A DNA stretch of 64,000 nucleotides, taken from NCBI GenBank assembly GCA_964513235.1, contig CAZEMI010000239.1:3991-67990 (forward strand), written 5' to 3'. This DNA comes from an uncultured Acidobacterium sp. (GTDB lineage Bacteria > Acidobacteriota > Vicinamibacteria > Vicinamibacterales > UBA2999). This document shows, in pieces, positions 50,982 to 64,000 of the stretch. The translations under genes were made by a program, and so were the position numbers. The notes under the pieces were generated by a model. That model did not search any database and was not told the origin of the DNA. It was given only the letters and a program-made list of their open reading frames with translations. Each line of letters begins with the position of its first letter. Position 1 is the first letter of the stretch.

Positions 50982-51049
50982 GCCATCGATGAAAACACCA
51001 GGGCCACAGAAGGCGCAGATGTCACTGCTCAATCGCCAAGCGGTGCCGA

Positions 51050-52453
51050 GTGCCTGAGACGCTCGTCACCGTCGCGTATCTGGCCGCCGGATTACTTTTT
51101 ATTTTCAGCCTCGGCGGGCTGTCGGCGCAGGAGTCGGCGCCCCGCGGCAACCTGTTCGGCATGGCCGGCATGCTGATCGCCGTGCTGGTCACGGCCGTTG
51201 GTCCGCGTGTCGACAGCTACATGGTGATGACGGTCGCGCTGGTGATCGGCGGCGCGATCGGCGCCATGCTGGCGGCACGCGTCGGGATGACCTCGATGCC
51301 GCAGCTGGTGGCGATCCTCCACAGCTTCGTCGGCGCGGCGGCGGTGCTCGTCGGCATTGCCACGACGCTCGACCACAGCCAGCTGTTTACCGGCATCGAA
51401 CGGCGCATCCACGACACCGAGATCTTCGTCGGCATCTTCGTCGGCGCCATTACGTTCACCGGGTCGGTGGTGGCCTTCGGCAAGCTGCAGGGCGTGATCG
51501 GCAGCAAGCCGCTCCTGTTGCCGGGCCGCCACGTGATGAACCTGGTGATGCTACTGGCGTGCCTCTATCTCGGCGACGTCTTCGTCACCTACGGCGACTA
51601 CTTCCCCGTGCTCTGGCCGTTACTGGTCGTGACGGCGATCGCCTCGCTGATGGGCATCCACCTGGTGATGGCCATCGGCGGCGCCGACATGCCGGTGGTG
51701 GTCTCGATGTTGAACAGCTACTCGGGGTGGGCCGCGGCGGCGGCGGGCTTCATGCTCGAGAACGACCTGCTGATCATTACCGGCGCGCTGGTCGGTTCGA
51801 GCGGCGCGATCCTCAGCTACATCATGTGCGCCGCGATGAACCGATCGTTCCTGAGCGTGATTCTCGGTGGCTTCGGCGCCGAGGAAGGTGCGGCTCCGGC
51901 GGGCGGATCGGCGCAACCGGCCGGCGAAGTCAAGTCGGTGACGGCGGAAGAGACCGCGGATCTCCTGCGCGATGCCAAGAGCGTGATCGTGGTGCCGGGC
52001 TATGGCATGGCGGTGGCGCAGGCGCAGTACCCGCTGTATGAAGTCACCAAGCTGCTGCGCGACAAGGGCGCGAACGTGCGGTTCGCGATCCATCCCGTGG
52101 CCGGCCGCCTCCCCGGTCACATGAACGTGCTGCTGGCGGAAGCCAAGGTGCCGTACGACATCGTGCTGGAGATGGAAGAGATCAACCAGGAGTTTCCCAC
52201 CACGGACCTGGTGCTCGTGATCGGCGCCAACGACATCGTCAATCCGGGCGCCCTCGACGATCCGTCGAGCCCGATCTACGGCATGCCGATCCTCGAAGTG
52301 TGGAAGGCGAAGACCGCCATCGTGATGAAGCGCGGCATGGCCAGCGGCTATGCCGGGGTCGACAACCCGCTGTTCTACAAGGACAACACGCGGATGCTGT
52401 TCGGCGACGCGAAGAAGATGATCGACGCGGTACTGACCGCGCTGAACAGCTAG
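51050..52453 (+). CDS. pntB: NAD(P) transhydrogenase beta subunit
   Basis: [64 protein letters not shown]. Confidence 0.96.
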
Positions 52454-52483
52454 GCCACCGATTCACACCGATTCGACACCGAT
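52454..52483 (+). repeat. Single arm of the GCCACCGAT-(T/C)ACACCGAT repeat family
   Basis: gccaccgattcacaccgattcgacaccgat directly after the pntB stop; similar to 6877-6896; weaker relative at 50982-51020. Confidence 0.6.
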
Positions 52484-52529
52484 CCACGCGCCTCGCCAGG
52501 GCGCCTTACTTTGTAAATAAAAGTTCTTT

Positions 52530-54041
52530 GTGTATGCTGGGCGGGTGCATTACCTGCTTCGCCGGACGCGACGCGTCAAACTGATCCTCCCGGCCCTCAC
52601 CGAAGCCACCAGCCCCTACTGGCGACCCGTCAAATATTCGCTGTTTCCGCCGCTCGGCCTGGCCACGCTCGCCGCGTATCTCGATCACGACGCCGAGGTC
52701 GCGCTCCAGGACGAGCACGTCGAGCCGCTCGACCTCGACGACGACCCGGACCTGGTAGTGATCCAGGTCTACATCACCAATGCGTATCGCGCCTACCGCA
52801 TCGCGGACCACTACCGGCGCAAGGGCGCGCACGTGGCGCTCGGCGGCCTGCACGTCACCTCCCTGCCCGATGAGGCCGCGCCCCACGCCGACACGATCTT
52901 TCTCGGCCCAGGCGAAGACACGTTCCCCCAATTCCTTCGCGACCTCGCCGGCGGCGTGCCGAAACGTCGTTATGTGTCGCAACTGAGAACGCTCGATCAC
53001 CTGCCGCCCATTCGCCGCGACCTGATCCGGCGCCACCGCTACCTCGTGCCCAATTCGATCGTCGTGTCTCGCGGCTGTCCGCACCACTGCACGTTCTGCT
53101 ACAAGGACGCCTTCTTCGAGGGCGGGCGCTCGTTCTACACGCAGCGCGTGGATGCGGCGCTCGCGGAGATCAACCGGCTGCCGGGACGCCACCTGTATTT
53201 CCTCGACGATCACCTGCTCGGCAACCGCAGGTTCGCCCGCGAGTTGTTCACCGGCATGACCGGGATGAACCGGGTGTTCCAGGGCGCGGCCACCGTGGAT
53301 TCGATCCTGCGCGACGACACGATCGAATACGCCGCCGCCGCGGGCCTGCGCAGCCTGTTCGTGGGATTCGAGACGCTGTCGCCGCGCGGCCTGGCCGGCG
53401 CCGGCAAGCGACAGAACCTCGGCCGCCCATTCGACTCGCCGATTGGCGCGGTGCGCCAGTCGGCTCGCTCAGGGCAGGCGACCCACTATCGGGAGGCCAT
53501 CCGCCGGCTCGACGATCTCGGCATCATGATCAACGGCAGCTTCGTCTTCGGCCTCGATGGCGACGATCCCGACGTGTTTCGGCGCACCGTCGATTGGGCC
53601 GTGGCGAGCGGCATCACGACCGCGACCTTTCACGTGCTCACGCCCTATCCGGGCACGCAGCTGTACGCCGAGATGACCGGGCAAGGGCGAATCGTGACCG
53701 GCAACTGGGATCTCTACGACACGCGGCACGTGGTCTATCGGCCGCTTGGGCTGTCCGCGGAGGAGCTCACGCGCGGCTACGACTGGTCGTACCGCGCCTT
53801 CTATGAGTGGGGCGCCATCGTCAAGGGGGCATTCGCGCATCGATCGGCGAAGCATTCCCTGAAGCACTTCGCGTACAGCGCCGGCTGGAAGAAGTTCGAG
53901 CCCGCGTGGGACGTCGTCATTCGCCTCAAGCAACTGGCGCAGATGCGGCCGTTGCTCGAGGCGATCCTCGCACCCGTGCGACACGCTCCGCAAATCGCGG
54001 CAGCCCCGGTTGCGCTAGAATCGCGGCACCTCTCCCGTTGA
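52530..54041 (+). CDS. B12-binding radical SAM protein
   Basis: PPLGLATLA, LGGLHVT (B12 domain), SRGCPHHCTFC (CxxxCxxC), FVGFET, GSFVFGLDGD, LTPYPGT; likely start GTG 52545. Confidence 0.92.
   Translation: MYAGRVHYLLRRTRRVKLILPALTEATSPYWRPVKYSLFPPLGLATLAAYLDHDAEVALQDEHVEPLDLDDDPDLVVIQVYITNAYRAYRIADHYRRKGAHVALGGLHVTSLPDEAAPHADTIFLGPGEDTFPQFLRDLAGGVPKRRYVSQLRTLDHLPPIRRDLIRRHRYLVPNSIVVSRGCPHHCTFCYKDAFFEGGRSFYTQRVDAALAEINRLPGRHLYFLDDHLLGNRRFARELFTGMTGMNRVFQGAATVDSILRDDTIEYAAAAGLRSLFVGFETLSPRGLAGAGKRQNLGRPFDSPIGAVRQSARSGQATHYREAIRRLDDLGIMINGSFVFGLDGDDPDVFRRTVDWAVASGITTATFHVLTPYPGTQLYAEMTGQGRIVTGNWDLYDTRHVVYRPLGLSAEELTRGYDWSYRAFYEWGAIVKGAFAHRSAKHSLKHFAYSAGWKKFEPAWDVVIRLKQLAQMRPLLEAILAPVRHAPQIAAAPVALESRHLSR
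53425..53475. repeat. REP-like palindrome inserted in frame in the radical SAM gene
   Basis: gccc-a-ttcgactc...gctcagggc is the reverse complement of the 29427 element, with a 12-bp inner hairpin gccgattggcgc/gcgccagtcggc. Confidence 0.75.
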
Positions 54042-54053
54042 GAGTGACGAACC

Positions 54054-54443
54054 ATGAAGTCGCCAAACGGCCGCTGCACGGTCACGAAGATCGACTACAA
54101 CGAAACTCGCATGGGTGGTCCGCTGATCGGGCGGATTCACGTCGATGGCGGCCGCGCGAAAACCGGGGAGCGCGAATTCGGAGAGGCGATGGCGTTTAGT
54201 CCCGACTCGCGTTACCTGGCCATCGGCGAACTCGTCGGCGTGACCAGGGACCATGCCGGGCCGCACAGCCAGGTCGTGGTTTTCGACCTCGAGCTGGGGA
54301 AGGAATACGTCGTTCATGACGAATACGGCGGATTGATCCACGGCGTGTCCTGGGATGTGCAAGGCTGCCTGTCGGTGACCGCGTGGCGGTACCCGGACGG
54401 TGAATCGGAACACCGCGACGTTTGGGGGCCGAGCCTGCCATGA
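54054..54443 (+). CDS. Small beta-rich hypothetical protein (partial propeller-like)
   Basis: AFSPDSRYLAIGE..VVVFDL; stop overlaps the next ATG. Confidence 0.55.
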   Translation: MKSPNGRCTVTKIDYNETRMGGPLIGRIHVDGGRAKTGEREFGEAMAFSPDSRYLAIGELVGVTRDHAGPHSQVVVFDLELGKEYVVHDEYGGLIHGVSWDVQGCLSVTAWRYPDGESEHRDVWGPSLP

Positions 54444-55012
54444 TCGATCAGATCGCGGCGGTGATCGTGAGCGAGAACAAATGGCTGCCGCTGGCCATGT
54501 CCGCGGCGGTCGGGTCGGTGGCCGTGTTGCTCGCCCGGCAGCGCGGCTCGGATCTGCCCACGACTCGCCTCGTGATGGCGGCGATGAATCTCTTCGCCGG
54601 CGTCATGCTCGCGACGATGGGAGCCGGGCACGTGCTGGCGGTGACCACGAAGCTGCTGCTCGGGACGCTGGAAGGATCACCGCTCGTCCTGTATCCAATC
54701 GGCGCCGCGGTCCTCGTGCCGTCGTGGCTCGTCATCGCTCACACCCGCGCGATCATGGTCAGAGCGGATTCCGGCAGGACAACCATCGGCCTCAACGCCT
54801 GGCTCGCCGTCACGCTCATGGCGCTGGGGCTGCACAACTTGCCGCTCGCGGCGCCCTCGTTGTTAAATATCGGCTATCGCCTGCACTCGCGCCGGGCGAT
54901 CGGCATGGCGATCGTCAGCGTGGCGGTGGTGTTCAACGTGGCGCTGTTCATCGGCGCGTTGGTGTTCATGGCCAGCGGACAGACGTTCGAACAGTTCAGT
55001 GAAATCGAATAG
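54440..55012 (+). CDS. Integral membrane protein of unknown function
   Basis: Five to six hydrophobic helices; start ATG 54440. Confidence 0.65.
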   Translation: MIDQIAAVIVSENKWLPLAMSAAVGSVAVLLARQRGSDLPTTRLVMAAMNLFAGVMLATMGAGHVLAVTTKLLLGTLEGSPLVLYPIGAAVLVPSWLVIAHTRAIMVRADSGRTTIGLNAWLAVTLMALGLHNLPLAAPSLLNIGYRLHSRRAIGMAIVSVAVVFNVALFIGALVFMASGQTFEQFSEIE

Positions 55013-55021
55013 GCACTGCCT

Positions 55022-55519
55022 ATGACGGTCGATCCTGATCCCGCCGCGCTCGTCTCGTCGTTCGCCGACGCGGCACTGCGTGTCGAGACGTTGGGTCGGC
55101 TGCAACAGCTCGGCGTCGCGGCGCTGCCGGCGGTCCGGGAAGGGCTGAAGCACCCCGACTGGCACATCCGGCACTGGTGCGCCATCTACCTCGATCGCGG
55201 CGCCGATCCCGAGACGCTCCGCGACCTGGTGCCCTTGCTGACGGATCCGGAACCTAAAGTGCGCGTGTGGGCGATCCATTCGATCTCGTGCGAGCACTGC
55301 AAGGATGACGAGTGCCCGGTCGACGTGGTGCCTCTGCTAATCGAGCGTGCCGAGCGGGATAGCGTGCCGCGCGTTCGGAAGATGGCAATCGCGATGCTGG
55401 CCAGCCTGCCCGACGATCCCCGGATCGCCCCGGTCCTGCAACGCGCGCTCGTGGTCGAGTCGGATGCGAAAATTCGCCTGCACGCCAGGCTCGGTCTCGA
55501 GAAGTATTCAACCGCGTAA
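55022..55519 (+). CDS. HEAT-repeat protein with a CxxCx4C motif
   Basis: LKHPDWHIRHW, LTDPEPKVRVWA, DSVPRVRKMA; SCEHCKDDEC. Confidence 0.7.
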   Translation: MTVDPDPAALVSSFADAALRVETLGRLQQLGVAALPAVREGLKHPDWHIRHWCAIYLDRGADPETLRDLVPLLTDPEPKVRVWAIHSISCEHCKDDECPVDVVPLLIERAERDSVPRVRKMAIAMLASLPDDPRIAPVLQRALVVESDAKIRLHARLGLEKYSTA

Positions 55520-55560: not shown

Positions 55561-56385
55561 ATGAGCTCCGTTTTCGCCGACGCCACGCTGGCGCGGCGCC
55601 TCGAAACCACCGAGGGTCAGGGCAACGCCGCGTTTGTCGACGCGCAGGCGCGGCACGAGCCGTACTCCGGCGCCATCCGCACCGGGATTGCCGGCACGCA
55701 GGTCATGTTCGCCGGCGTCGGTTCGCCGATCACCCAAACGTTCGGCCTCGGCATCCATCAGCGTCCCGGCGACCGTGACCTCGATGCGATCGAGCGTTTT
55801 TTCACGTCACGGGGGTCCGCGGTCTTTCACGAAGTGAGCCCGCACGCCGGCGTCGAGGTGCTGGCGATGCTCGCGGGGCGCGGCTACAAGCCGGTTGAGA
55901 TCTCGAACGTCATGTTTCGGGAGATCAAGGGTGCGCAGGGTGCACAGGGTGCGCAAGGTGCGCAAGGTGCACAGGGTGCCCTTCGGGTCAGGCGCGTCCA
56001 TCTCGACGAGGCCGAGTGGTATGGCAGCATTGCGGCACGCGGGTGGAGCCAGGAAGCGCCGGAAGTCTTGCCATTCATCCACGGCTTCGCCCGATCCAGC
56101 GTGGAATGCGCCACGTGTTTCGTCGCCGAGCACGATGGCCAGGCCATTGCCACCGCCGCGCTGTTCATGCATGGCGGCGTCGCATTGTTGGCGGGCGCGA
56201 GCACGGTACCCGAAGGCCGCCGCAAGGGCGCGCAACTCGCGCTGCTCGACACTCGTCTCAGTACCGCGGCATCACACGGGTGCGACCTGGCGATGATGGT
56301 CGCCGCGCCGGGCAGCGCCTCGCAGCGCAACGCCGAGCGGAATGGTTTTCGCGTCGCTTACACACGCACCAAATGGCAATTATGA
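55561..56385 (+). CDS. GNAT-family acetyltransferase
   Basis: ALLAGASTVPEGRRKGAQLALL..RL..A...GCDLA....PGSASQRNAERNGF. Confidence 0.85.
   Translation: MSSVFADATLARRLETTEGQGNAAFVDAQARHEPYSGAIRTGIAGTQVMFAGVGSPITQTFGLGIHQRPGDRDLDAIERFFTSRGSAVFHEVSPHAGVEVLAMLAGRGYKPVEISNVMFREIKGAQGAQGAQGAQGAQGALRVRRVHLDEAEWYGSIAARGWSQEAPEVLPFIHGFARSSVECATCFVAEHDGQAIATAALFMHGGVALLAGASTVPEGRRKGAQLALLDTRLSTAASHGCDLAMMVAAPGSASQRNAERNGFRVAYTRTKWQL
55930..55980 (+). repeat. 9-bp tandem repeat GGTGC(G/A)CA(G/A) x5.7, encoding (GAQ)5GA
   Basis: ggtgcgcag ggtgcacag ggtgcgcaa ggtgcgcaa ggtgcacag ggtgcc. Confidence 0.85.
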
Positions 56386-56438
56386 AGACATGGGCCGGGG
56401 GTGGCACTTCTTGCCGGGGTCGACGTCACGTGCCGGGA

Positions 56439-57611
56439 ATGGCACTACGGGCCGGGTTAATCGTTGCGCTGATCTTCGCGAACTCGCCGAGCGCGTTGGC
56501 GCAGTCGACGCGCGTCGAGACCATCGCCGAAGAACAGGCCGAGAAGGCCAGGCAGCTGGGCGCCGAGGGCCCGGGCGGGGCCGAACAGGTGATCCGACGG
56601 GTCCTGCTCTCGCCGCTGCTGTCGGGCGGCGACGGCGCCTATCCCTGGTTCGGCAGCGTCTACAGCGGCACGGGCATGGCGATCGGCGCCGGCTACCTGA
56701 AACGCCTCGAGAAGGCGGCCTCGATCAACGTGCAGACCGGCATCTCGCTCAACAACTCGATGATGCTGCGCGGCAACGTCGTGGCGCCGGAATTGTGGCG
56801 CGGTATGTTGCAAGTCGACGCCAGTGCGCAGTGGATGGACGCGCGCGGCGTGTCGTTCTACGGTCTCGGCCAGCACTCGTCGAAACAGACGCGGCAACGC
56901 TACGACTACACACCGATGGAAGCCGGCGCCAACGCCACGCTCAAGCCGATGCGGTTCCTGTCGGTGAGCGGCAGCTATTCGTTCCTCGCCCTCGATACCA
57001 ATCGCGATCTGCAGTTTTTCACCGAGGCCGAAATGCCGGGCATCGATCGCGAGCTGGCCTACCACGTGACGCGGGCGACGGTGGCCCTCGACTGGCGCAC
57101 CTCGCCAGGCTACAGCACCCGGGGCGGCTACTATCGCGCGACGATCGAACGCAACCGCGAGACCGGCGGTGAGCCGTTCTCGTTCCGGTCGCAGGAATAC
57201 GAGCTGGTGCAGCTGCTGCCGCTCATGCGCGAACAGTTCGTGCTGGCCGCGCGCGCCCTGATAACGGTCACCACGCCCGATGCCGGCCACGACGTGCCGG
57301 TGATGCTGGCGCCGTTTCTCGGCAGCGGCAGCACGTTGCGCGGGTTCGCGAATCGCCGGTTGTCGGATCGCAATCGCGTGCTGTTCAGCGGTGAATATCG
57401 CTGGCGGCCGTCACGCTATCTCGACATGGCCCTGTTCATGGATGCCGGCCAGGTGGCCGCCGATCGCCGTGATTTTCGCGCCGGCGAGTTCGAAACCGCG
57501 TGGGGACTGGGCGCGCGGTTCCATGGACCGAACTTCAACGCCTTGAGGATCGAGGCGGCACGGGGCCGTGAAGGCCTCCGCCTGATCTTCGCCGGATCGC
57601 AGGCCTTCTGA
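56439..57611 (+). CDS. Omp85 (BamA/TamA-superfamily) beta-barrel without POTRA domains
   Basis: Signal peptide; amphipathic strands; LGSGSTLRGF loop-6 motif; LFSGEYRW, LFMDAGQV, WGLGARF; terminal Phe; alternative start ATG 56382. Confidence 0.75.
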   Translation: MALRAGLIVALIFANSPSALAQSTRVETIAEEQAEKARQLGAEGPGGAEQVIRRVLLSPLLSGGDGAYPWFGSVYSGTGMAIGAGYLKRLEKAASINVQTGISLNNSMMLRGNVVAPELWRGMLQVDASAQWMDARGVSFYGLGQHSSKQTRQRYDYTPMEAGANATLKPMRFLSVSGSYSFLALDTNRDLQFFTEAEMPGIDRELAYHVTRATVALDWRTSPGYSTRGGYYRATIERNRETGGEPFSFRSQEYELVQLLPLMREQFVLAARALITVTTPDAGHDVPVMLAPFLGSGSTLRGFANRRLSDRNRVLFSGEYRWRPSRYLDMALFMDAGQVAADRRDFRAGEFETAWGLGARFHGPNFNALRIEAARGREGLRLIFAGSQAF

Positions 57612-59248
57612 TGACACGACCTCACTCCCTCATCGCGCTGCTGCTGGTCGCCGCGTCGGCGCTCTCGCTCGGCGCCCAGACGCGGCGCTTTTATCCCGAC
57701 GATCCGATCTGGCGCGAGCCGATGACGCAGGATGTCACGTCCGCGGCGCGCTATGAGCCGGACCTCGCCTATCAAACGATCGAGAACCTGTTCCTGAAGC
57801 CCGGCGATCCGGTGCTCGGCCAGCGAGCGAAAAACATCAATACGGTCGATGAAGTTCCCGACGGTCCGTACTTCGTCAATCGCGCCGGGCGCATGCCGCT
57901 GACGCCGGCGCTGGTGGCGCGGGCCGCCAACACCAGCAACGGACCCGCGCCCGGCAAGTGGACCGTGGTGTCGGCGAAAAGCGACGGCGTCACGCCTGGC
58001 TTCACCATCCGCGACGCCGCGAACCAGCTGTGGTTCGTCAAGTTCGATCCGCCCGGCTGGCGCGGCATGGCCACCGGCAGCGAGATCGTCGCGGCGAAGC
58101 TGTTCTGGTCGGCCGGCTACCACACCGCCGAGTACCACATCGGCCAACTGGTGCCGGTCAACCTCGTGATCGGCAAGGACACGCGCATCACGCCGCCGGG
58201 CGAAATGGCGCGGGCCATGAACCAGGGCGACATCGCGTGGCTGCTGTCGCGCGCCGATCGGGATCCCGACGGCTCGTATCGCGTCATTCTCAGCAAGGCC
58301 ACGCCCGGCCGCCCGGTGGGCCGCATTCGCTTCCACGGCACGCGCGCCGACGACCCCAACGACGTCGTCCCGCACGAACATCGCCGCGAACTTCGGGGCT
58401 ACTTTGTGTTTGCCGCGTGGCTCAATCACGTCGACGCCAAGGGCATCAACTCGCTGTCGTCGCTGGTCACCGAGAACGGCCGCAGCTTCATCCGCCACTA
58501 CCTGCTCGATTTCGGATCCGCGCTCGGCAGCGCCGCCGTCGGCCCACGCGAAGGCTGGGAAGGCTATGAAGCACTGGTCGAACAACCGGGCGAGATTGGC
58601 AGACGCGCACTCTCCTTCGGGTTCAAGGTGCCGGTGTGGCGCACGCAGGATTATTTCGAATCGCCGGCGATCGGCCGCCTGCCGCGTGATCACGCCAAGT
58701 GGGACCCCGAAACATGGTGGCCGCACATCACCAACGCCGCGTTCCGCCACATGCGGCCCGACGATCAATTCTGGGCGGCGGCGAAGCTGGCCGCGATCAC
58801 CGAGGACATGATCCGTGCCGCGGTCGCGGAAGGAAAGTTCGGCGATGCGAAGTCTGAAGAATTTCTCGCCAAGGCGATCATCGATCGCCGGCTGCGCATC
58901 CTGCAGACCTTCCTGCCCAAGGTGAACCCGATTGTCGATCCGGCCCTCGATGCGAAGGGCCGCCTGACGTTCCGCAATGCGGCGTCGGATGCCGCGGTGG
59001 TGGACCGGGCTCCGGGCTATCGGGCCCTTTGGTACACCTTCGATAACGCCTCCGACCGGGCCACCCTGGTGGCGACCACCGAGGAAACCCAGAGCCCGAT
59101 GCTGATGCCGGCGATGCCAGCGTCCGATTACATAAAGGTGGACCTCGTGGCGGTTGGCGGGCCGGAAGCCTGGGCCAAGCCGGTTTCCGCGTATTTCCGC
59201 AGAAATTCGGGAAATTGGATACTGGTTGGGTTCGAACGCCAACCGTGA
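57611..59248 (+). CDS. Exported atypical kinase-like protein (HipA/PI3-4K/CotH-like motifs)
   Basis: Signal peptide; DGVTPG loop, FVKFD, EIVAAKLFWSAGY, NHVDAKGIN, LLDFGS; ATG overlaps the Omp85 stop. Confidence 0.65.
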   Translation: MTRPHSLIALLLVAASALSLGAQTRRFYPDDPIWREPMTQDVTSAARYEPDLAYQTIENLFLKPGDPVLGQRAKNINTVDEVPDGPYFVNRAGRMPLTPALVARAANTSNGPAPGKWTVVSAKSDGVTPGFTIRDAANQLWFVKFDPPGWRGMATGSEIVAAKLFWSAGYHTAEYHIGQLVPVNLVIGKDTRITPPGEMARAMNQGDIAWLLSRADRDPDGSYRVILSKATPGRPVGRIRFHGTRADDPNDVVPHEHRRELRGYFVFAAWLNHVDAKGINSLSSLVTENGRSFIRHYLLDFGSALGSAAVGPREGWEGYEALVEQPGEIGRRALSFGFKVPVWRTQDYFESPAIGRLPRDHAKWDPETWWPHITNAAFRHMRPDDQFWAAAKLAAITEDMIRAAVAEGKFGDAKSEEFLAKAIIDRRLRILQTFLPKVNPIVDPALDAKGRLTFRNAASDAAVVDRAPGYRALWYTFDNASDRATLVATTEETQSPMLMPAMPASDYIKVDLVAVGGPEAWAKPVSAYFRRNSGNWILVGFERQP

Positions 59249-59294
59249 GATACTGTGAGCCGTTTTTCTCGTATTTCAACCTAAGAGAGTTTTA

Positions 59295-60131
59295 ATGCAC
59301 GTTTTGCGTTTGACCGTGTGTTCCCTGGTGTTTTGCGCCCTGACGGTTCCGGCGTGGGCGCAGGAACCATTGCCAACCGAGAATCCAGGGGATACCACCG
59401 GGGCCGCAACCGCGCCGGACGCTGGACAGATCGTGTTGCCCCCGACGGCCAGGCCCGTCGAGCTGCCGATGGCGACGGCCATCGAAACCACCAACGTCTT
59501 CAAGCTTTCGGCCGGTGACTTCAAGAATTTCTTCAGCTTCGACACTGCGAAGGTGATGAGCTACGTCTCGCTGGTCGCGATTGCCACCGCACCGTGGGAT
59601 CGCGAGGGCGTCAACAACGGGTTCAACATCCCGACGTCGCTGTTCGAATCGGGCAACCTGCTGGGTCAATTCGCATTTCAGGCCACCGCGGGGTTTGCCA
59701 CCTACGGCATCAGCAAGACCATCGGCAACAAGAAATCGGCGACGGTCGGCCGCGATATCGTGCGCGCGCAGGTGCTGTCGCAAGCGCTCGTGCAGACGGT
59801 GAAGCACACGGTGCGCCGCCAGCGTCCCGACGGCAGTAACAGAGCCTCTTTCCCTTCAGGCCACTCAGCCAGCGCCTTCGCCACGGCCACCGTGCTGCAG
59901 CGTCACTACGGCTGGAAGATCGGCGTGCCGGCGTATGCGCTCGGCGGTTATATCTCCCTCGCGCGCATGGCATGGAACCGCCATCACGCCACTGACGTCG
60001 TTATGGGTGCAGGCTTCGGCATCGCGTCGGCACGCACCGTGACAATGTCGATGGCGAAGAGCAAGTTCAGTGTCGGGGTGCGGCCGGAAGTGGGCGGCGC
60101 CTCGGTAAACTTCACGAAGATCGTCAAGTAA
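59295..60131 (+). CDS. PAP2-family phosphatase
   Basis: K-x6-RP (KHTVRRQRP), FPSGH, R-x5-H-x3-D (RMAWNRHHATD); signal peptide-like N-terminus. Confidence 0.88.
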   Translation: MHVLRLTVCSLVFCALTVPAWAQEPLPTENPGDTTGAATAPDAGQIVLPPTARPVELPMATAIETTNVFKLSAGDFKNFFSFDTAKVMSYVSLVAIATAPWDREGVNNGFNIPTSLFESGNLLGQFAFQATAGFATYGISKTIGNKKSATVGRDIVRAQVLSQALVQTVKHTVRRQRPDGSNRASFPSGHSASAFATATVLQRHYGWKIGVPAYALGGYISLARMAWNRHHATDVVMGAGFGIASARTVTMSMAKSKFSVGVRPEVGGASVNFTKIVK

Positions 60132-60153
60132 ACAGCCCGTCTTTGGCGGGTGA

Positions 60154-60182
60154 TCCACCTTCGCGCTTCGCGCTTCGGTGGA
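60154..60182. repeat. Small REP-like hairpin tccacc-ttcgcgcttcgcgcttc-ggtgga
   Basis: 6-bp arms around a gcttcgc repeat; resembles the gccttcgc arm at 39984. Confidence 0.5.
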
Positions 60183-60201
60183 CAAGATGCGGAGGTCCCC
60201 C

Positions 60202-61047
60202 ATGACCAGGATAGGCGGCGCCCTCGTCGTCCTGTTACTGACCTCGTTCGTACCCGTTCCCACCTACGCGCAGGCCGTTGCGGCTGCGCCCGCTCCCGCT
60301 CCACACCTCACCGTGGAGCAGACGAAACACTTCCTCAAGAACGCCAGAATCACCCGCACGCGCAGCACCAGCAAGGGCGTCACCGCGCCCAAGCGCCTCA
60401 CGCTGAGCGACGGCGTGATTACGCACGACGCGGTGTTCCAGTCCGTCGACGAGCGACAGACGGTGGCCAGCCTGGGCGGCGGCGGCCGCCAGGCGACGAC
60501 CGAGTTCAACTTCGTCGACTCGTATCGATACAACCTCGGCGCCTACGCGCTGGCCGAGCTGCTCGGCCTCGACCACATGATGCCCGTGCACGTCGAGCGG
60601 CGCTGGTCGGGCGCGAGCGGATCGATGAGCTGGTTCGTGGACACGTTGATGGACGAAAGCGATCGGCTCAAGAAAAAGATTCAGCCCCCGAACGCGGCCG
60701 ACTGGAACAACCAGATGTACCGCATGCGCATCTTTTCGGCGCTGGTGCGGGACACCGATCGCAACCTGACCAACGTGCTGATCACACCGGAATGGAAAGT
60801 GATCATGATCGACTTCAGCCGTGGCTTTCGATTGCAGGCGCAGCTGATGCACGAGAAAGATCTTGCGAAGATGGATCGCGCGCTGCTGCCTCGCCTCGAG
60901 GCGCTGACGAAAGAGGGCGTGAAGAAGGCCGTCGGCGACTGGCTCACCAGCGGGGAGATCGACGCCATGATGAAGCGGCGCGATCTGCTGGTCGGGCACT
61001 TCAAGAAGCTGATCGCCGAATTGGGCGAGGAAAAAGTTCTCTATTGA
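60202..61047 (+). CDS. Exported PI3/4-kinase-like protein
   Basis: GGAGG RBS 6 nt before ATG 60202; signal peptide; KGVTAP loop, AYALAELLGL, DTDRNLTNVLI, IDFSRGF. Confidence 0.68.
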   Translation: MTRIGGALVVLLLTSFVPVPTYAQAVAAAPAPAPHLTVEQTKHFLKNARITRTRSTSKGVTAPKRLTLSDGVITHDAVFQSVDERQTVASLGGGGRQATTEFNFVDSYRYNLGAYALAELLGLDHMMPVHVERRWSGASGSMSWFVDTLMDESDRLKKKIQPPNAADWNNQMYRMRIFSALVRDTDRNLTNVLITPEWKVIMIDFSRGFRLQAQLMHEKDLAKMDRALLPRLEALTKEGVKKAVGDWLTSGEIDAMMKRRDLLVGHFKKLIAELGEEKVLY

Positions 61048-61127
61048 TCGTCCAATCACCAGCGCGGCCGTAATCGTCGCTCCCACCACCTCTCTACAAA
61101 TCTGCAGGCCCGAAATATACTCCGCCC

Positions 61128-64000
61128 ATGAAGAGATCTCTGTACCTACTCACGCTGTGCGTGTTGTGCCTGCCGTCGTTGCACGGGCAGGAACGGCAGG
61201 CCCAGGACGACACGGCCAAACCCGCCGAAGGCTTCACGCTCAAGACGGCGGAGACTATCGAATTCACCACCGACGAAGTGACGTGGATGCAGGTGGACGT
61301 GTCACCCGATGGCCGGACCATCCTGTTCGACCTGCTCGGCGATCTCTACACGATGCCGATCACGGGCGGCGAGGCGACGCGGATCATGGGCGGGCTGTCG
61401 TTCGAGAGCCAGCCGGCGTGGTCGCCGGACGGCAAGACCATCGCCTTCCTGACCGATCGCACCGGCGTCGAGAACCTGTGGATCGCCGACGCCGACGGCA
61501 CCAACCCGCGCGCGGTGAGCAAGGACGGCCGCACCAACGATCGGCCGCAGATCATGGTGTCGCCGGCGTGGACGCCGGACGGCAACTTCATCGTGGTCTC
61601 GAAGTCGCGGCCGCCGGACCCCGGCACGTTCTGGCTGTTCATGTATCACCGCGACGGTGGCACGGGCGTCCGCGTGGGCGCGCCGCCGCCGCCGCCGCCC
61701 AGCCCGGATGCGCAGGGGCCGCCGCCGGCGCCGCCGATCAACCGAATGGGCGCGGTGGTGTCGCCCGATGGCCGATTCATCTACTACACGCAGCGCACCG
61801 GCACGTTCACCTACAACGCGCGCTTCCCGCTATGGCAGATCTACCGTCACGATACCGAGACCGGCGACGTGACGCAGATCACCAACGCGCAAGGCAGCGC
61901 CATCCGCCCGGCGCTTTCTCCCGATGGCAAATGGATGGTCTTCGGCACGCGGCACAAATCGCAGACCGGCCTCCGCGTCCGCAATCTCGAGACCGGCGCG
62001 GAACGGTGGCTTGCCTACCCGGTGACGCGCGACGACCAGGAGTCGCGCGCCAGCCGCGACACGCTGCCGCGCTACGACTTCATGCCCGACGGCACATCGC
62101 TGATCGTGCCGGTGAACGGCAAGCTGCAGCGCATCGACTTTGCCACCGGCCAGGCCACGCCGATTCCCTTCACCGCGAAGGTGGCAGCCGAGATTGCGCC
62201 GCGCGTCTACACGCCGGTGCGCGTGGAAGACGGCGCCACCATGCGAGCGCGGTTGATCCGCTGGCCGTCGCTGTCGCCGGATGGGCGCACGCTCGTGTTC
62301 TCGGCCATGAATCGTCTGTACATTCAAGACTACCCGAACGGGAGTCCTCGTCTTCTGACGGGTGCGCAGGGTGCCGCTGAAGGGGAGTTCATGCCGGCGT
62401 GGTCGTCGGATGGTCAGTCCATTGTGTATGCGACCTGGACGACAACGGGAGGCCACATCAAGCGGATCAGCGTGAATGGCGGTCAGCCGCAAACGTTGAC
62501 GCGGAACGAAGGCTACTATCTCGACCCCGCGTATTCGCCCGATGGATCGCGCATCGTGTTCATGGCGGGCGCGGCGTCGGACCAGCTGTATTCGATCCTG
62601 ATGGACACACCGCCCGAGGACGAGATCGATCGCGATGAGCATGCGCCGCGCGAGATCACCGGCGTGAACCCGCCGAACACGCTCGAGATCCGGTGGATGC
62701 CGGCCGCCGGCGGCGCCGGCACGCTGGTGGCATCGGCACAGGGCGGGCGCGGGCCGCACTTCGCGCGCAACGATGCGGGCCGCATCTACTTCACGACCAA
62801 CCGCGGCCTGCAGTCGATCACCATCGACGGCCACGATCGCCGCACCCTGGTGCGCATCACCGGGATCGCGCCGGGCGGCGCGCCGAATCCACCCGCCGCC
62901 GGCACCATCCGCCTCTCACCGGACGGCACGCGGGCATTTGTCAACCTCCAGGAGCGGCACTACCTGGTCACGATGCCGCGCGCCGGCCGCGAGACGGTGA
63001 ATATCCGCATCGAACGACGCGGCGACAGTGCGGTCCCGGTGAAGAACATGTCGCTCGAGGGCGGCGATTACCTGGATTGGAGTGCGGACGGCAAGGCCGT
63101 TACCTGGGCGTGGGGCTCGCAGTTCTTCCGCCAGGACATCACGGCCACCGATCCCCGGAAGACCGACGTGGTGGTCGAGATGCCGCGCACCAAGCCGAAG
63201 GGCTCGCTGTTGCTGACCGGTGCGCGCATCATCACGATGAAGGGCAACGAGGTCATTCCGCAGGGCGATGTGCTCGTCACCGACAATCGCATTGCGGCTA
63301 TCGGCAGGCGCGGATCGCTCGCGGTGCCCGCGGGCACGCGCACCATCAGCGTCGCCGGCAAGACCATCATGCCGGGCCTGGTGGACGCGCACTCGCACAT
63401 GTGGGCGCCGCGCGGCCTGCATCAAACCGAGGTGTGGCAGTACCTCGCCAACCTCGCGTATGGCGTGACCACGACGCGCGATCCGCAAACCTCAACGCCC
63501 GACGTGTTCGCGTATGCCGACATGGTGGACAGCGGCATGATGCCAGGCCCGCGCATCTACGCCACCGGCCCGGGCGTCTTTTCCGGATCGGGCATCGACA
63601 GCCGCGAGGCCGCCTTCCGATTCGTCAAGCGCTACAAAGAGGCCTATCGCACCAACACCCTCAAGCAATACGTTGCCGGCGATCGCATCGTCCGGCAATG
63701 GATCATCGAGGCGTGCCAGGAGTACGGCATCACCCCGACCATCGAAGGCTCGCTCGACTTGAAGTTGAACCTGACGCAGATGGCCGACGGCTATTCCGGC
63801 CAGGAGCACAGCTTCCCGATTGCGCCGCTCTACAAGGACGTGACGATGTTCGTGGCGAAGACGAAGACCTTCTATACGCCGACGATTCTCGTGGCCTATG
63901 GCGCACCGTGGAGCGAGAACTACTGGTTCGAGACGGAGACACCGGCGAACGACCCCAAGCTGCGCAAGTGGGTGCCGTGGGAGCTGCTCGACGGCATGGT
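61128..64000 (+). CDS. Exported amidohydrolase with N-terminal TolB/PD40 beta-propeller repeats, 3'-partial
   Basis: Not in the ORF track because it has no stop in the window; translated by hand. MKRSLYLL..., VDVSPDGRTILFDLLGDLY, PAWSPDGK repeats, GKTIMPGLVDAHSH, YGVTTTRDP; frame stays open to 64000. Confidence 0.88.
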   Translation, partial: MKRSLYLLTLCVLCLPSLHGQERQAQDDTAKPAEGFTLKTAETIEFTTDEVTWMQVDVSPDGRTILFDLLGDLYTMPITGGEATRIMGGLSFESQPAWSPDGKTIAFLTDRTGVENLWIADADGTNPRAVSKDGRTNDRPQIMVSPAWTPDGNFIVVSKSRPPDPGTFWLFMYHRDGGTGVRVGAPPPPPPSPDAQGPPPAPPINRMGAVVSPDGRFIYYTQRTGTFTYNARFPLWQIYRHDTETGDVTQITNAQGSAIRPALSPDGKWMVFGTRHKSQTGLRVRNLETGAERWLAYPVTRDDQESRASRDTLPRYDFMPDGTSLIVPVNGKLQRIDFATGQATPIPFTAKVAAEIAPRVYTPVRVEDGATMRARLIRWPSLSPDGRTLVFSAMNRLYIQDYPNGSPRLLTGAQGAAEGEFMPAWSSDGQSIVYATWTTTGGHIKRISVNGGQPQTLTRNEGYYLDPAYSPDGSRIVFMAGAASDQLYSILMDTPPEDEIDRDEHAPREITGVNPPNTLEIRWMPAAGGAGTLVASAQGGRGPHFARNDAGRIYFTTNRGLQSITIDGHDRRTLVRITGIAPGGAPNPPAAGTIRLSPDGTRAFVNLQERHYLVTMPRAGRETVNIRIERRGDSAVPVKNMSLEGGDYLDWSADGKAVTWAWGSQFFRQDITATDPRKTDVVVEMPRTKPKGSLLLTGARIITMKGNEVIPQGDVLVTDNRIAAIGRRGSLAVPAGTRTISVAGKTIMPGLVDAHSHMWAPRGLHQTEVWQYLANLAYGVTTTRDPQTSTPDVFAYADMVDSGMMPGPRIYATGPGVFSGSGIDSREAAFRFVKRYKEAYRTNTLKQYVAGDRIVRQWIIEACQEYGITPTIEGSLDLKLNLTQMADGYSGQEHSFPIAPLYKDVTMFVAKTKTFYTPTILVAYGAPWSENYWFETETPANDPKLRKWVPWELLDGM

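What the first reader, a model, noticed from the sequence alone, without database searches (positions are those of the whole stretch)
56382..61047. POTRA-less Omp85 barrel + two exported atypical kinases + PAP2 phosphatase: candidate extracytoplasmic phosphorylation module
Seen: the Omp85-type barrel gene is translationally coupled (TGATG) to a 545-aa signal-peptide protein with kinase-like motifs (GVTPG loop, VKFD lysine, E-x5-W-x-AG helix, HVDAKGIN catalytic loop, DFG). A PAP2 phosphatase and a second signal-peptide protein with PI3/4K-like DRNxxN and IDF motifs follow. Established: exported kinases are rare in bacteria (CotH and Legionella effectors are examples), and the periplasm is generally thought to lack ATP. 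Inference: a writer/eraser set acting on envelope lipids, glycans or proteins, or a two-partner-like route that exports the kinase through its own barrel.
Basis: partly seen in the sequence, partly recalled or inferred. Interest (0 to 1): 0.75.

Follow-up and report, generated by a model that had tools for sequence, protein, structure and literature searches.

The report
Outer-membrane barrel with exported kinase-like partners
A soil acidobacterium encodes an outer-membrane barrel joined to an exported kinase-like enzyme, plus an exported phosphatase and a second exported kinase-like protein. In related bacteria the same parts sit next to, or are fused with, ATP/ADP-type nucleotide carriers, which suggests ATP-driven phosphorylation outside the cytoplasm.

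Summary
Four same-strand genes (56439-61047) encode signal-peptide proteins:
- a POTRA-less Omp85 barrel;
- K1 (545 aa), overlapping the barrel by TGATG;
- a soluble PAP2 phosphatase;
- K2 (about 281 aa).

K1 and K2 match no Pfam family above threshold. Their AlphaFold models match only kinase folds (CtkA, Fam20C/Fam20A, PI4K, Rio). K1 carries a complete kinase motif set, kept in 73 of 81 relatives.

Linkage differs by gene:
- Barrel-K1 is an obligate pair: 76 of 78 loci, K1 identity 92 to 42%.
- PAP2 recurs in 25 of 78 loci.
- K2 recurs in 12 of 78 loci.

New evidence: in sister lineages, TLC/NTT (ATP/ADP-translocase family) carrier genes lie beside barrel-K1. In 12 loci the carrier is fused in frame to the barrel. 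Distant K2 relatives independently sit beside NTT-HEAT genes and an exported PPP-like phosphatase. This gives a candidate nucleotide supply, which answers the "no periplasmic ATP" objection. The window itself has no NTT gene within 64 kb.

Function is inferred, not shown. The module is widespread (more than 3,000 K1 clusters at 50% identity) and I found no description of it. Verdict: real, novel and of high interest.

The parts
56439..57611 (+). POTRA-less (noNterm-type) Omp85 outer-membrane barrel. The ORF is open from 56382; the likely start is ATG 56439. Features: signal peptide to ALA|Q (56439-56501); conserved N-terminal helix TRVETIAEEQAEKARQL (56508-56558); L6 motif TLRGF (57333-57347); FMDAG (57435-57449); C-terminal Phe.
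   Evidence: Pfam Omp85 2.8e-10 and NCBIfam Omp85_fam 1.4e-14. No POTRA family in 23 of 23 family members. A profile matches only the barrel parts of TamA/BamA in the PDB. Motifs located.
57609..57613 (+). TGATG stop/start overlap between the barrel and K1.
   Evidence: Read directly. Overlaps or gaps of 160 nt or less between barrel and K1 in 76 of 78 related loci.
57611..59248 (+). K1, an exported protein-kinase-like enzyme of an undescribed family. Features: signal peptide (57611-57676); conserved FYPDDP segment (57689-57706); Gly-loop GVTPGF (57986-58003); beta3 VKFD (58037-58048); alphaC SEIVAAKLFWSAGY (58079-58120); family signature RADDPNDVVPHEHRRELRG (58343-58399); catalytic loop NHVDAKGIN (58424-58450); DFGSALGS (58508-58531); C-terminal beta-sandwich, about aa 441-543 (58931-59239).
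   Evidence: No Pfam, NCBIfam or PDB sequence hit. AlphaFold2 model pLDDT 85.2, pTM 0.88. Foldseek top hits are CtkA at 1.3e-4 and Fam20C at 3.3e-4, followed by PI4KII-alpha, VPS34, Rio2 and APH. Motif conservation. 3,114 clusters at 50% identity.
59295..60131 (+). Exported, soluble PAP2-type phosphatase. Features: signal peptide to AWA|Q; motifs KHTVRRQRP (59802-59828), PSGH (59853-59864), ARMAWNRHHATD (59961-59996).
   Evidence: Pfam PAP2 1.7e-11; weak LpxE hit at 1.3e-4. No transmembrane-like segment after the signal peptide. Downstream of K1 in 25 of 78 loci.
60187..61047 (+). K2, a second exported kinase-like protein, not detectably related to K1 by sequence. The ORF is open from GTG 60178; homologue lengths favour a start at 60187 or 60202. 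Features: signal peptide to TYA|Q (ends about 60270); SKGVTAP loop (60370-60390); catalytic-loop-like DTDRNLTN (60751-60774); MIDFSR (60805-60822).
   Evidence: Weak NCBIfam hits to Kdo kinase (1.2e-4) and the SCO1664 family (4.6e-4). AlphaFold2 model pLDDT 67. Foldseek hits Fam20A at 1.4e-4 (TM 0.48), then Fam20C, PRPK, Rio, PI4KIII-beta and CtkA. hhalign against K1 is not significant but aligns catalytic loop to DFG. Synteny.
55561..56385 (+). Context only: a cytoplasmic GNAT acetyltransferase directly upstream. It is conserved next to the barrel only in close relatives.
   Evidence: Pfam Acetyltransf_1 2.8e-5. Present only in loci whose K1 is about 60% or more identical.
61128..64000 (+). 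Context only: an exported TolB-like beta-propeller protein with an amidohydrolase-like C-terminal part, running off the window end. It has its own promoter-like site at 61093-61121.
   Evidence: Translation; Pfam PD40 3e-36; promoter-like match; synteny only in close relatives.

Best explanation
The cluster is an envelope phosphotransfer module built around an obligate pair.

Shown:
- All four products carry Sec-type signal sequences.
- K1 and K2 have kinase folds, and K1 keeps every canonical ATP/Mg catalytic residue.
- The PAP2 protein has an intact active site and no membrane helices.
- Barrel and K1 are always adjacent.
- NTT/TLC carriers are recurrently adjacent to, or fused with, the barrel in sister lineages, and adjacent to distant K2 relatives.

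Inferred:
- K1 is held at the periplasmic face of the outer membrane by its barrel. In signal-peptide-type K1 proteins, the conserved FxPDDP segment would pair with the barrel's conserved N-terminal helix. In other lineages K1 is a lipoprotein, and its barrel lacks that helix.
- K1 transfers phosphate from a nucleotide to an envelope substrate, which could be a protein, lipid or glycan.
- The exported phosphatase (PAP2 here, a PPP-like metallophosphatase elsewhere) reverses the mark or consumes the nucleotide.
- K2 is a second writer with another specificity.
- The nucleotide would reach the periplasm through an NTT-type ATP/ADP exchanger. That carrier is encoded elsewhere in this genome, if it is present at all.
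For: - Folds: K1; K2.
- Catalytic motifs complete in 73 of 81 barrel-linked K1 proteins.
- Export signals in 111 of 116 representatives, about 25-30 with a lipobox-like Cys, by a heuristic.
- Barrel-K1 adjacency in 76 of 78 loci, with frequent stop/start overlap, and tandem duplicated pairs in L061 and L062.
- PAP2 downstream in 25 of 78 loci, spanning two K1 clades. The window PAP2 is soluble.
- TLC genes beside barrel-K1 in about 21 loci from at least four lineages. Pfam TLC scores 53.6 bits against a cutoff of 21.
- In-frame TLC-Omp85 fusion ORFs of about 822-830 aa in 12 loci. These are also called independently by NCBI and recovered in ENA and Logan assemblies.
- Locus L053 reads K2 - NTT-HEAT-cNMP - barrel - K1.
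- Distant K2 relatives sit beside NTT-HEAT in 17 of 41 loci. One lineage has a conserved K2(x2) - exported PPP-like Metallophos - NTT-HEAT cluster.
- The barrel's N-terminal helix co-varies with the K1 N-terminal type: 20 of 20 signal-peptide-type against 0 of 3 lipoprotein-type.
Against: - No biochemical evidence for kinase activity, nucleotide binding, localisation or substrate.
- The window has no TLC/NTT gene in 64 kb, and most barrel-K1 loci (about 60 of 84) show none within 6 kb.
- The most conserved K1 residues are non-canonical: R245, D248, D251, H255, R258, R259, R262, H296 and G306, each conserved in at least 96% of sequences. The chemistry could therefore be atypical, for example AMPylation or another nucleotide-dependent transfer.
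- All characterised NTTs are importers or exchangers of parasites and plastids. The function and direction of NTT and NTT-HEAT proteins in free-living bacteria are unknown (PMC5381601).
- The K2 model has only moderate confidence (pLDDT 67), and it was built from a shallow alignment.
- The helix/lipoprotein co-variation rests on only three lipoprotein-type loci.
Confidence: 0.45

Rival explanations
1. Two-partner-like secretion. The Omp85 barrel is a dedicated translocator that moves K1 (and, where K1 is a lipoprotein, flips it) to the cell surface or the medium. There K1 acts as a secreted kinase or effector on other cells or on the matrix, as CtkA and Fam20C act outside their producing compartment.
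For: - Obligate adjacency and translational coupling of a barrel gene and an exported partner resemble TpsB/TpsA operons.
- The closest structural matches to K1 are secreted kinases.
- Some K1 proteins have lipoboxes.
- Genes flanking Leptospira noNterm Omp85 encode lipoproteins, and a transport role has been discussed for those barrels (PMC11358297).
Against: - No POTRA domain in 23 of 23 barrels, and no TPS domain or beta-helix in K1.
- The gene order is barrel then cargo.
- The barrel keeps the BamA/TamA-type L6 RGF and FxDxG lid-lock motifs, which PMC11358297 argues against a transport role.
- Linkage and fusion with an inner-membrane nucleotide carrier is not explained by export of K1 to a place without nucleotides.
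Confidence: 0.2
2. Nucleotide scavenging. The parts form an uptake and salvage route for external nucleotides. The barrel would be the outer-membrane entry, K1 and K2 periplasmic nucleotide-binding or processing proteins, PAP2 or Metallophos the periplasmic nucleotidases, and the NTT the inner-membrane nucleotide importer.
For: - Every characterised NTT imports or exchanges nucleotides (PMC5381601).
- From general knowledge, periplasmic class A acid phosphatases (including Shigella apyrase) and metallophosphoesterases such as UshA hydrolyse nucleotides. Periplasmic apyrase is also mentioned in PMC5613738, listed.
- The association of NTT, phosphatase and nucleotide-binding folds recurs.
Against: - A binding protein would not need the full catalytic set of Lys, Glu, HxDx(K/R)xxN and DFG that 73 of 81 K1 proteins keep.
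- Omp85 barrels are not known to act as solute channels.
- Dephosphorylating nucleotides defeats uptake by an NTT.
- The Metallophos protein in L156 has PPP-type (protein phosphatase/ApaH-like) GDxxDRG and GNHE motifs.
Confidence: 0.15
3. Non-catalytic accessory. K1 is a pseudo-enzyme or scaffold that assists a specialised BamA/TamA-like insertase in outer-membrane biogenesis. The PAP2 and K2 genes are unrelated neighbours.
For: - The barrel resembles BamA/TamA barrels most closely.
- K1's most conserved residues are non-canonical.
- K2 linkage is limited to one lineage plus L053.
- Some K1 paralogues have degenerate catalytic residues: L050, L080 at 239-1846, and L084.
Against: - Canonical catalytic residues are retained in 90% of barrel-linked K1 proteins over a 92-42% identity range.
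- PAP2 recurs in two clades.
- NTT genes link independently to both K1 and K2.
Confidence: 0.1

Closest known systems
noNterm (POTRA-less) Omp85 proteins (Heinz & Lithgow 2014, PMC4104836; Leptospira LIC12252/12254/12258, PMC11358297)
   Same: A 16-strand Omp85-type barrel with no POTRA domain. It has the L6 (L/M)RG(F/Y) and FxDxG motifs and an adjacent gene for an exported or lipoprotein partner. Function is unknown.
   Different: The partner here is a kinase-like enzyme, not an adhesin-like lipoprotein. This barrel subfamily has its own conserved N-terminal helix (TRxExIAxxQAEKA). In 12 loci it is fused to an NTT carrier. No Pfam family other than Omp85 matched any of the 23 barrels at E 0.01 or better, so none shows the DUF5982 region that marks the Leptospira type, assuming that region has a Pfam model.
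Two-partner secretion (type Vb: TpsB/TpsA, e.g. FhaC/FHA)
   Same: An Omp85-superfamily barrel gene tightly linked to the gene of a Sec-exported partner.
   Different: No POTRA domains, no TPS domain or beta-helix in the partner, and reversed gene order (barrel first). The barrel carries BamA-like lid motifs.
Secreted or atypical kinases of the protein-kinase-like superfamily: H. pylori CtkA (HipA-like), Fam20C/Fam20A, PI4KII, and CotH as a functional analogue
   Same: A bilobal kinase fold, with best Foldseek matches to CtkA and Fam20. The protein is exported from the cytoplasm. K1 has a complete Gly-loop, Lys, Glu, HxDxKxxN and DFG set.
   Different: No significant sequence similarity. There are no Pfam HipA_C, Fam20C or CotH hits for the window proteins, and only sub-threshold HipA_2 hits in 6 of 46 relatives. 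K1 has extra N-terminal and C-terminal beta-sandwich domains and its own RxDDPNDxxxHxxRRxxR signature. It has an obligate Omp85 partner.
NTT/TLC nucleotide transporters and NTT-HEAT(-cNBD) fusions of free-living bacteria (Major et al. 2017, PMC5381601)
   Same: The carriers linked to K1 and K2 loci match Pfam TLC above threshold. They include the described NTT-HEAT and NTT-HEAT-cNBD architectures.
   Different: The 2017 survey assigned these fusions no function, and the passages I read from it do not mention these partners. The NTT-Omp85 in-frame fusion and the linkage to exported kinase-like proteins and phosphatases are not among the architectures it lists. None is present in this window.
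PAP2-PIK-like module (SEAE1) of Segetibacter (bioRxiv 10.64898/2026.09.18.752743)
   Same: A PAP2 phosphatase gene clustered with a PI-kinase-like protein and a Sec-exported protein of unknown function.
   Different: SEAE1 is predicted to be intracellular, and that cluster is restricted to one genus with other partners (SmpB, AccD). Here both kinase-like proteins and the PAP2 carry signal peptides and are tied to an Omp85 barrel.

Membership tests
Omp85 superfamily (barrel) | Omp85 barrel domain (Pfam PF01103) | tested here: met
   2.8e-10, 40.7 bits against a cutoff of 24. 20 of 23 family members hit.
Omp85 superfamily (barrel) | L6 (V/L)RG(Y/F) motif, FxDxG motif and a C-terminal aromatic residue | tested here: met
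   TLRGF, FMDAG and a terminal F, conserved in alignment A4.
BamA/TamA/TpsB classes of Omp85 | One or more periplasmic POTRA domains | tested here: not met
   No POTRA family hit in 23 of 23 members. Only about 45 residues, a predicted helix, lie between the signal peptide and the first strand.
Two-partner secretion (type Vb) | Partner protein with an N-terminal TPS domain and beta-helix | tested here: not met
   K1 has no Pfam hit. Its model is a kinase fold plus a beta-sandwich.
Two-partner secretion (type Vb) | Barrel-dependent export of the partner across the outer membrane | not testable with these tools
   This needs fractionation or surface-shaving experiments.
Protein-kinase-like superfamily (K1) | Bilobal kinase fold | tested here: met
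   Model pLDDT 85.2. All seven Foldseek hits at E 0.001 or better are kinases: CtkA at 1.3e-4 and Fam20C at 3.3e-4. TM-scores are low (0.28-0.49) because the query has several domains.
Protein-kinase-like superfamily (K1) | Gly-rich loop, beta3 Lys, alphaC Glu, HxDxxxxN catalytic loop and DFG Asp | tested here: met
   GVTPGF, K144, E158, H273, D275, K277, N280 and D300-F-G. The same set occurs in 73 of 81 locus homologues.
Protein-kinase-like superfamily (K1) | Nucleotide-dependent phosphotransfer activity | not testable with these tools
   This needs biochemistry.
HipA/CtkA family | Match to the HipA_C or HipA_2 profiles | tested here: not met
   The window K1 has no hit. 6 of 46 relatives give sub-threshold HipA_2 hits, best 0.0017.
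Fam20/FJ and CotH secreted kinases | Match to the family sequence profile | tested here: not met
   No Pfam hit for K1 or K2 at E up to 1. The similarity is at fold level only.
PI3/PI4-kinase-like (K2) | DRHxxN catalytic loop, a downstream (I/L)D(F/H) metal-binding Asp, and a kinase fold | tested here: inconclusive
   DRNLTN and IDF are present and conserved in a 41%-identical relative. The fold matches Fam20A, PI4KIII-beta and Rio, but model confidence is moderate at pLDDT 67. No PI3_PI4_kinase Pfam hit, and no clear beta3 Lys.
PAP2 phosphatases | The KX6RP, PSGH and SRX5HX3D motifs | tested here: met
   KHTVRRQRP, PSGH and ARMAWNRHHATD, with Ser replaced by Ala in the third motif. Pfam PAP2 1.7e-11.
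Integral-membrane lipid phosphatases (PgpB/LpxE/LpxF type) | Multiple transmembrane helices | tested here: not met
   Only the signal peptide is hydrophobic. The highest 19-residue hydropathy elsewhere is 1.3. The LpxE hit scores 21.7 bits against a cutoff of 177.
NTT/TLC carrier as part of the module | A TLC-family gene adjacent to the locus | tested here: not met
   There is none in the 64-kb window. The feature is met in about 21 sister K1 loci and 17 distant K2 loci.

The most novel reading that the evidence does not exclude
Many free-living diderm bacteria run ATP-dependent phosphorylation in the periplasm or at the outer membrane. In this reading, NTT-type carriers (function unknown in free-living bacteria since 2017) export ATP in exchange for ADP. 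Exported kinase-like enzymes use that ATP: K1 docked on a dedicated POTRA-less Omp85 barrel, and K2. Exported phosphatases (PAP2 or PPP-like) reset the mark. The NTT-Omp85 fusion would then be a polyprotein that delivers both halves in equal amounts.
Probability: 0.3. Interest if true: 0.92.

Novelty: categorically new. Interest (0 to 1): 0.82.

Why it matters
The periplasm is generally taken to lack ATP, and processes there are thought to be energised only indirectly. This module pairs exported enzymes that keep a full ATP/Mg kinase site with exported phosphatases. In sister lineages it also includes ATP/ADP-translocase-family carriers that are physically fused to the outer-membrane partner. 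That gives a concrete, testable route to nucleotide-driven chemistry outside the cytoplasm.

It also suggests functions for three groups that currently have none:
- POTRA-less Omp85 barrels;
- NTT and NTT-HEAT carriers of free-living bacteria;
- a kinase-like family with more than 3,000 clusters at 50% identity and no Pfam model.

The genes are abundant in soil Acidobacteriota (Vicinamibacterales). One distant member is named as Gemmatimonadota, and others come from unassigned metagenomic contigs.

Tried and rejected
- Sequence-only searches of K1, a K1 profile, K2 and PAP2 against PDB chains gave nothing useful. Only the structure models revealed the fold.
- K1 and K2 are not detectably homologous by profile comparison (hhalign E 0.12). 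The only aligned stretch is catalytic loop to DFG.
- The diverse alignment A1 was too divergent for the locus scan; A2 worked.
- I considered a defence-system reading. PADLOC gave no hit for any of the four proteins.
- I tested whether the HEAT-repeat ORF at 55022-55519 is a remnant of an NTT-HEAT gene. It is shared only with L002 and partly L001, so it is treated as incidental.
- The long C-terminal extensions of some K1 proteins (P0273, P0317, P0292) match no Pfam family and none of the module proteins.
- P0368 and P0337 look like barrel-K1 fusions. These single metagenomic ORFs could be frameshift artefacts, given the TGATG overlap, so they are not used as evidence.
- Other recurrent neighbours are families I know to be very abundant in Acidobacteria. 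These are TonB-dependent-receptor-like OMPs, Hanks kinases, MacB/FtsX, two-component systems and an amidase. They were not counted as part of the module.
- Literature searches for an Omp85 plus kinase-like association, periplasmic kinase or ATP, and NTT-HEAT function found no description of this system.
- Two translations were first made in the wrong frame and discarded. One alignment attempt failed on a frameshifted locus.

Full report
**What is in the window**

On the + strand, four genes follow one another with gaps of -1, 46 and about 55-70 nt. No terminator-like site scores above background between them.

1. An Omp85-type barrel. The frame is open from 56382, but the best start is ATG 56439, which gives a classical signal peptide (MALRAGLIVALIFANSPSALA|Q). 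The stop is at 57611.
2. K1, 545 aa (57611-59248). Its ATG overlaps the barrel stop as TGATG.
3. A PAP2 protein (59295-60131).
4. K2 (ORF from 60178). Homologues of 279-281 aa place the start at 60187 or 60202.

Upstream lies a cytoplasmic GNAT gene. Downstream lies an exported TolB-propeller protein with an amidohydrolase-like C-terminal part and its own promoter-like site. Names attached to near-identical database proteins place the organism in Vicinamibacterales, Acidobacteriota.

**The barrel**

- Pfam finds only the Omp85 barrel domain.
- A 23-member alignment of K1-linked barrels shows no POTRA family in any member.
- A profile of that alignment matches only the barrel portions of TamA and BamA structures.
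- Between the signal peptide and the first strand there are about 45 residues, with a conserved helix-like motif (TRxExIAxxQAEKAxxL).
- The L6 motif TLRGF, the FMDAG motif and the C-terminal Phe are all present.
- It therefore belongs to the 'noNterm' class of Omp85 proteins, whose function is unknown (PMC4104836, PMC11358297).

**K1**

- There is no Pfam, NCBIfam or PDB sequence match, even with a family profile. The only signal is sub-threshold HipA_2 hits in 6 of 46 relatives.
- The family is very large: 3,114 clusters at 50% identity with E of 0.001 or better.
- An AlphaFold2 model from a 131-sequence alignment spanning 38-91% identity is confident (pLDDT 85.2, pTM 0.88).
- Foldseek against the PDB returns only kinases among its significant hits. 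These are H. pylori CtkA (1.3e-4, probability 1.0) and Fam20C (3.3e-4). They are followed by Fam20, PI4KII-alpha, VPS34, Rio2 and APH. TM-scores are low because the query has additional domains.
- Among 81 K1 genes from genomic loci, 73 keep the whole set.
- Across 150 more divergent representatives, the canonical residues are kept in 77-97% of sequences. A family-specific signature (R245, D248, D251, H255, R258, R259, R262, H296, G306) is kept in 96-100%. The chemistry may therefore be atypical.
- By a hydropathy and lipobox heuristic, 111 of 116 full-length representatives have an N-terminal export signal, and about 25-30 of these look like lipoproteins.

**PAP2 and K2**

- PAP2 has all three catalytic motifs, and no hydrophobic segment beyond its signal peptide. 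It is a soluble exported phosphatase, not a PgpB/LpxE-type membrane enzyme.
- K2 has only weak profile hits to Kdo kinase and the SCO1664 family.
- Its model could only be built from a shallow alignment of 75-94% identity, and it is of moderate confidence (pLDDT 67).
- Even so, all its best Foldseek matches are kinases: Fam20A (1.4e-4, TM 0.48), Fam20C, PRPK, Rio, PI4KIII-beta and CtkA.
- DTDRNLTN and MIDFSR are conserved in a 41%-identical relative.
- K1 and K2 are not detectably related by sequence. The only hhalign stretch is catalytic loop to DFG.

**Linkage of the four genes**

I took 79 genomic loci encoding K1 relatives (92-42% identity) and five more found through metagenomic representatives.

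- A barrel gene ends within 160 nt upstream, on the same strand, for 76 of 78 K1 genes that have at least 1 kb of upstream DNA. The other two also have a barrel: one HSP is truncated and one has a 465-nt gap.
- Stop/start overlaps recur, and L061 and L062 carry duplicated barrel-K1 pairs.
- PAP2 lies within 3.5 kb downstream in 25 of 78 loci. These fall in two K1 clades: the window type, and a clade 50-56% identical.
- K2 is present in 12 of 78 loci. Eleven are close relatives (K1 identity about 60% or higher). The twelfth is L053.
- The core is therefore the barrel-K1 pair. PAP2 is a frequent companion, and K2 is a lineage-specific one.

**The unexpected link to nucleotide carriers**

*Carriers beside barrel-K1*
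- A low-GC metagenomic locus (L080) reads DAGK(-), PAP2(-), Omp85, Omp85, K1 lipoprotein, TLC/MFS, TLC-HEAT, cNMP-binding.
- Another locus (L082) reads Omp85, K1 lipoprotein, an unknown gene, then TLC-HEAT-cNMP.
- A tblastn search then showed a TLC-like gene immediately upstream of the barrel in about 15 acidobacterial loci, often with a second TLC-HEAT gene further upstream.
- These proteins pass the Pfam TLC threshold (53.6 bits against 21). They hit the NTP/NDP exchanger superfamily model only weakly.

*Carrier fused to the barrel*
- In 12 loci from different studies, the TLC gene runs in frame into the barrel with no stop codon. The join is a signal-peptide-like segment ending AxA|QETRE.
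- The same 822-830-aa ORFs are called by NCBI, as 'BamA/TamA family outer membrane protein', and recur in ENA and Logan assemblies.

*Carriers beside K2*
- L053 reads K2 - NTT-HEAT-cNMP - barrel - K1.
- A metagenome scan with K2 showed that relatives of about 60% identity or more keep the window synteny. Relatives at 47-57% identity lack barrel and K1, yet 17 of 41 sit next to an NTT(-HEAT) gene.
- One lineage has a conserved cluster: K2 (one or two copies, with signal peptides), then an exported PPP-like metallophosphatase (GDLLDRG and GNHE motifs; Pfam Metallophos 1.6e-13), then NTT-HEAT (TLC 8.5e-23).

*What this adds up to*
- Two unrelated families of exported kinase-like proteins are each linked to nucleotide carriers and to an exported phosphatase.
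- NTT-HEAT(-cNBD) proteins are known to be widespread in free-living bacteria with no assigned function (PMC5381601). I found no later characterisation.
- The window itself has no TLC gene in 64 kb, and most barrel-K1 loci show none within 6 kb.

**Mechanism**

Most likely (confidence 0.45): K1 is a nucleotide-dependent transferase working at the periplasmic side of the outer membrane together with its barrel. PAP2 acts as eraser or nucleotide-consuming partner, and K2 as a second writer. The nucleotide supply comes from NTT-type exchangers.

One hint supports docking. All 20 signal-peptide-type K1 proteins, which carry an FxPDDP segment, pair with barrels that have the N-terminal helix. The three lipoprotein-type K1 proteins pair with barrels that lack it. 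With only three lipoprotein-type loci, this is suggestive at best.

Rivals:
- A TPS-like exporter of a secreted kinase (0.2). The defining POTRA and TPS features are absent.
- A nucleotide-scavenging route (0.15). This does not explain why the catalytic residues are conserved.
- A non-catalytic BAM-like accessory (0.1).

All functional statements are inference. No activity, localisation or substrate is shown.

**Comparison and novelty**

- The parts belong to known superfamilies (Omp85, protein-kinase-like, PAP2).
- K1 fails sequence membership of the HipA, Fam20 and CotH families.
- The barrel fails the POTRA criterion of the BamA, TamA and TpsB classes.
- Literature searches found no description of an Omp85/kinase-like pair, of NTT-Omp85 fusions, or of NTT linkage to exported kinases.
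- The nearest published analogue is a PAP2-PIK-like module in Segetibacter. It involves an intracellular kinase and different partners.
- I therefore rate the system as categorically new, with its function still unproven.

Noticed in passing
L024:3418-5901, and likewise L025, L026, L029, L030, L032, L033, L034, L039, L040, L045 and L068: In-frame fusion ORFs of about 822-830 aa join a TLC/NTT-like inner-membrane carrier to an Omp85 outer-membrane barrel. The join is an internal signal-peptide-like segment ending AxA|Q. NCBI annotates them as 'BamA/TamA family outer membrane protein'. This looks like a polyprotein whose halves belong to different membranes.
   Followed up: partly
L156:5989-12757; similar in L130, L131, L134, L136, L140, L145, L152, L154, L155, L157 and L160: A conserved cluster holds one or two exported K2-type kinase-like genes, an exported PPP-like metallophosphatase (GDLLDRG and GNHE motifs) and an NTT-HEAT carrier. 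No barrel or K1 is present.
   Followed up: partly
window 55022-55519 (+): A stand-alone 165-aa HEAT_2 repeat protein (Pfam 5.4e-20) lies two genes upstream of the barrel. It is shared only with L002 and partly L001, so it is probably incidental. It is still notable given the NTT-HEAT link elsewhere.
   Followed up: yes
window 55928-55979 (+), inside the GNAT gene 55561-56385: A 9-bp tandem repeat of 5.8 copies encodes (GAQ)n in the middle of the acetyltransferase. It may be a length-variable linker. The GNAT stop overlaps the upstream in-frame ATG (56382) of the barrel ORF.
   Followed up: no
L080:239-1846 (also L050 and L084): Some K1 paralogues have degenerate catalytic residues (for example ERKSMNSNDFD, against GGKEHDKNDFG at the same alignment positions in canonical K1). 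In L080 the paralogue lies upstream of the barrel-K1 unit and has no barrel directly beside it. These are possible pseudokinase partners of an active K1.
   Followed up: no
P0273 (1158 aa), P0317 and P0333 (969 aa), P0292 (742 aa); L084:8001-10910: These K1 proteins carry 200-600-aa C-terminal extensions. The extensions are related to one another but match no Pfam family.
   Followed up: partly
L072, L074, L075 and L076 downstream of K1; L024, L025, L026, L032, L038, L044, L053, L054, L058, L059, L060, L062 and L068 downstream of K1: One K1 clade is followed by an OmpR-type response regulator and a histidine kinase. Another is followed by a CarboxypepD_reg/TonB-dependent-receptor-like outer-membrane protein. 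Both families are common in Acidobacteria, so the meaning is unclear.
   Followed up: partly
L001, L004, L005, L006, L013, L016, L035, L052 and L074 (record titles): These contigs carry genes 46-92% identical to the window's, yet their MAG labels read Acidimicrobiia, Alphaproteobacteria, Cyanobacteriota, Bifidobacteriaceae or Microthrixaceae. This is most likely mis-binning or mislabelling, not a real phyletic spread.
   Followed up: no
window 49425-54041 (+): The upstream genes are ordinary: an ORF pair that looks like NAD(P) transhydrogenase PntA/PntB by its sequence (49425-50981 and 51050-52453; not run through a family search) and a B12-binding radical SAM protein (52530-54041; Pfam). A 196-aa membrane protein (54422-55012) and a 129-aa ORF (54054-54443) match no family.
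   Followed up: partly
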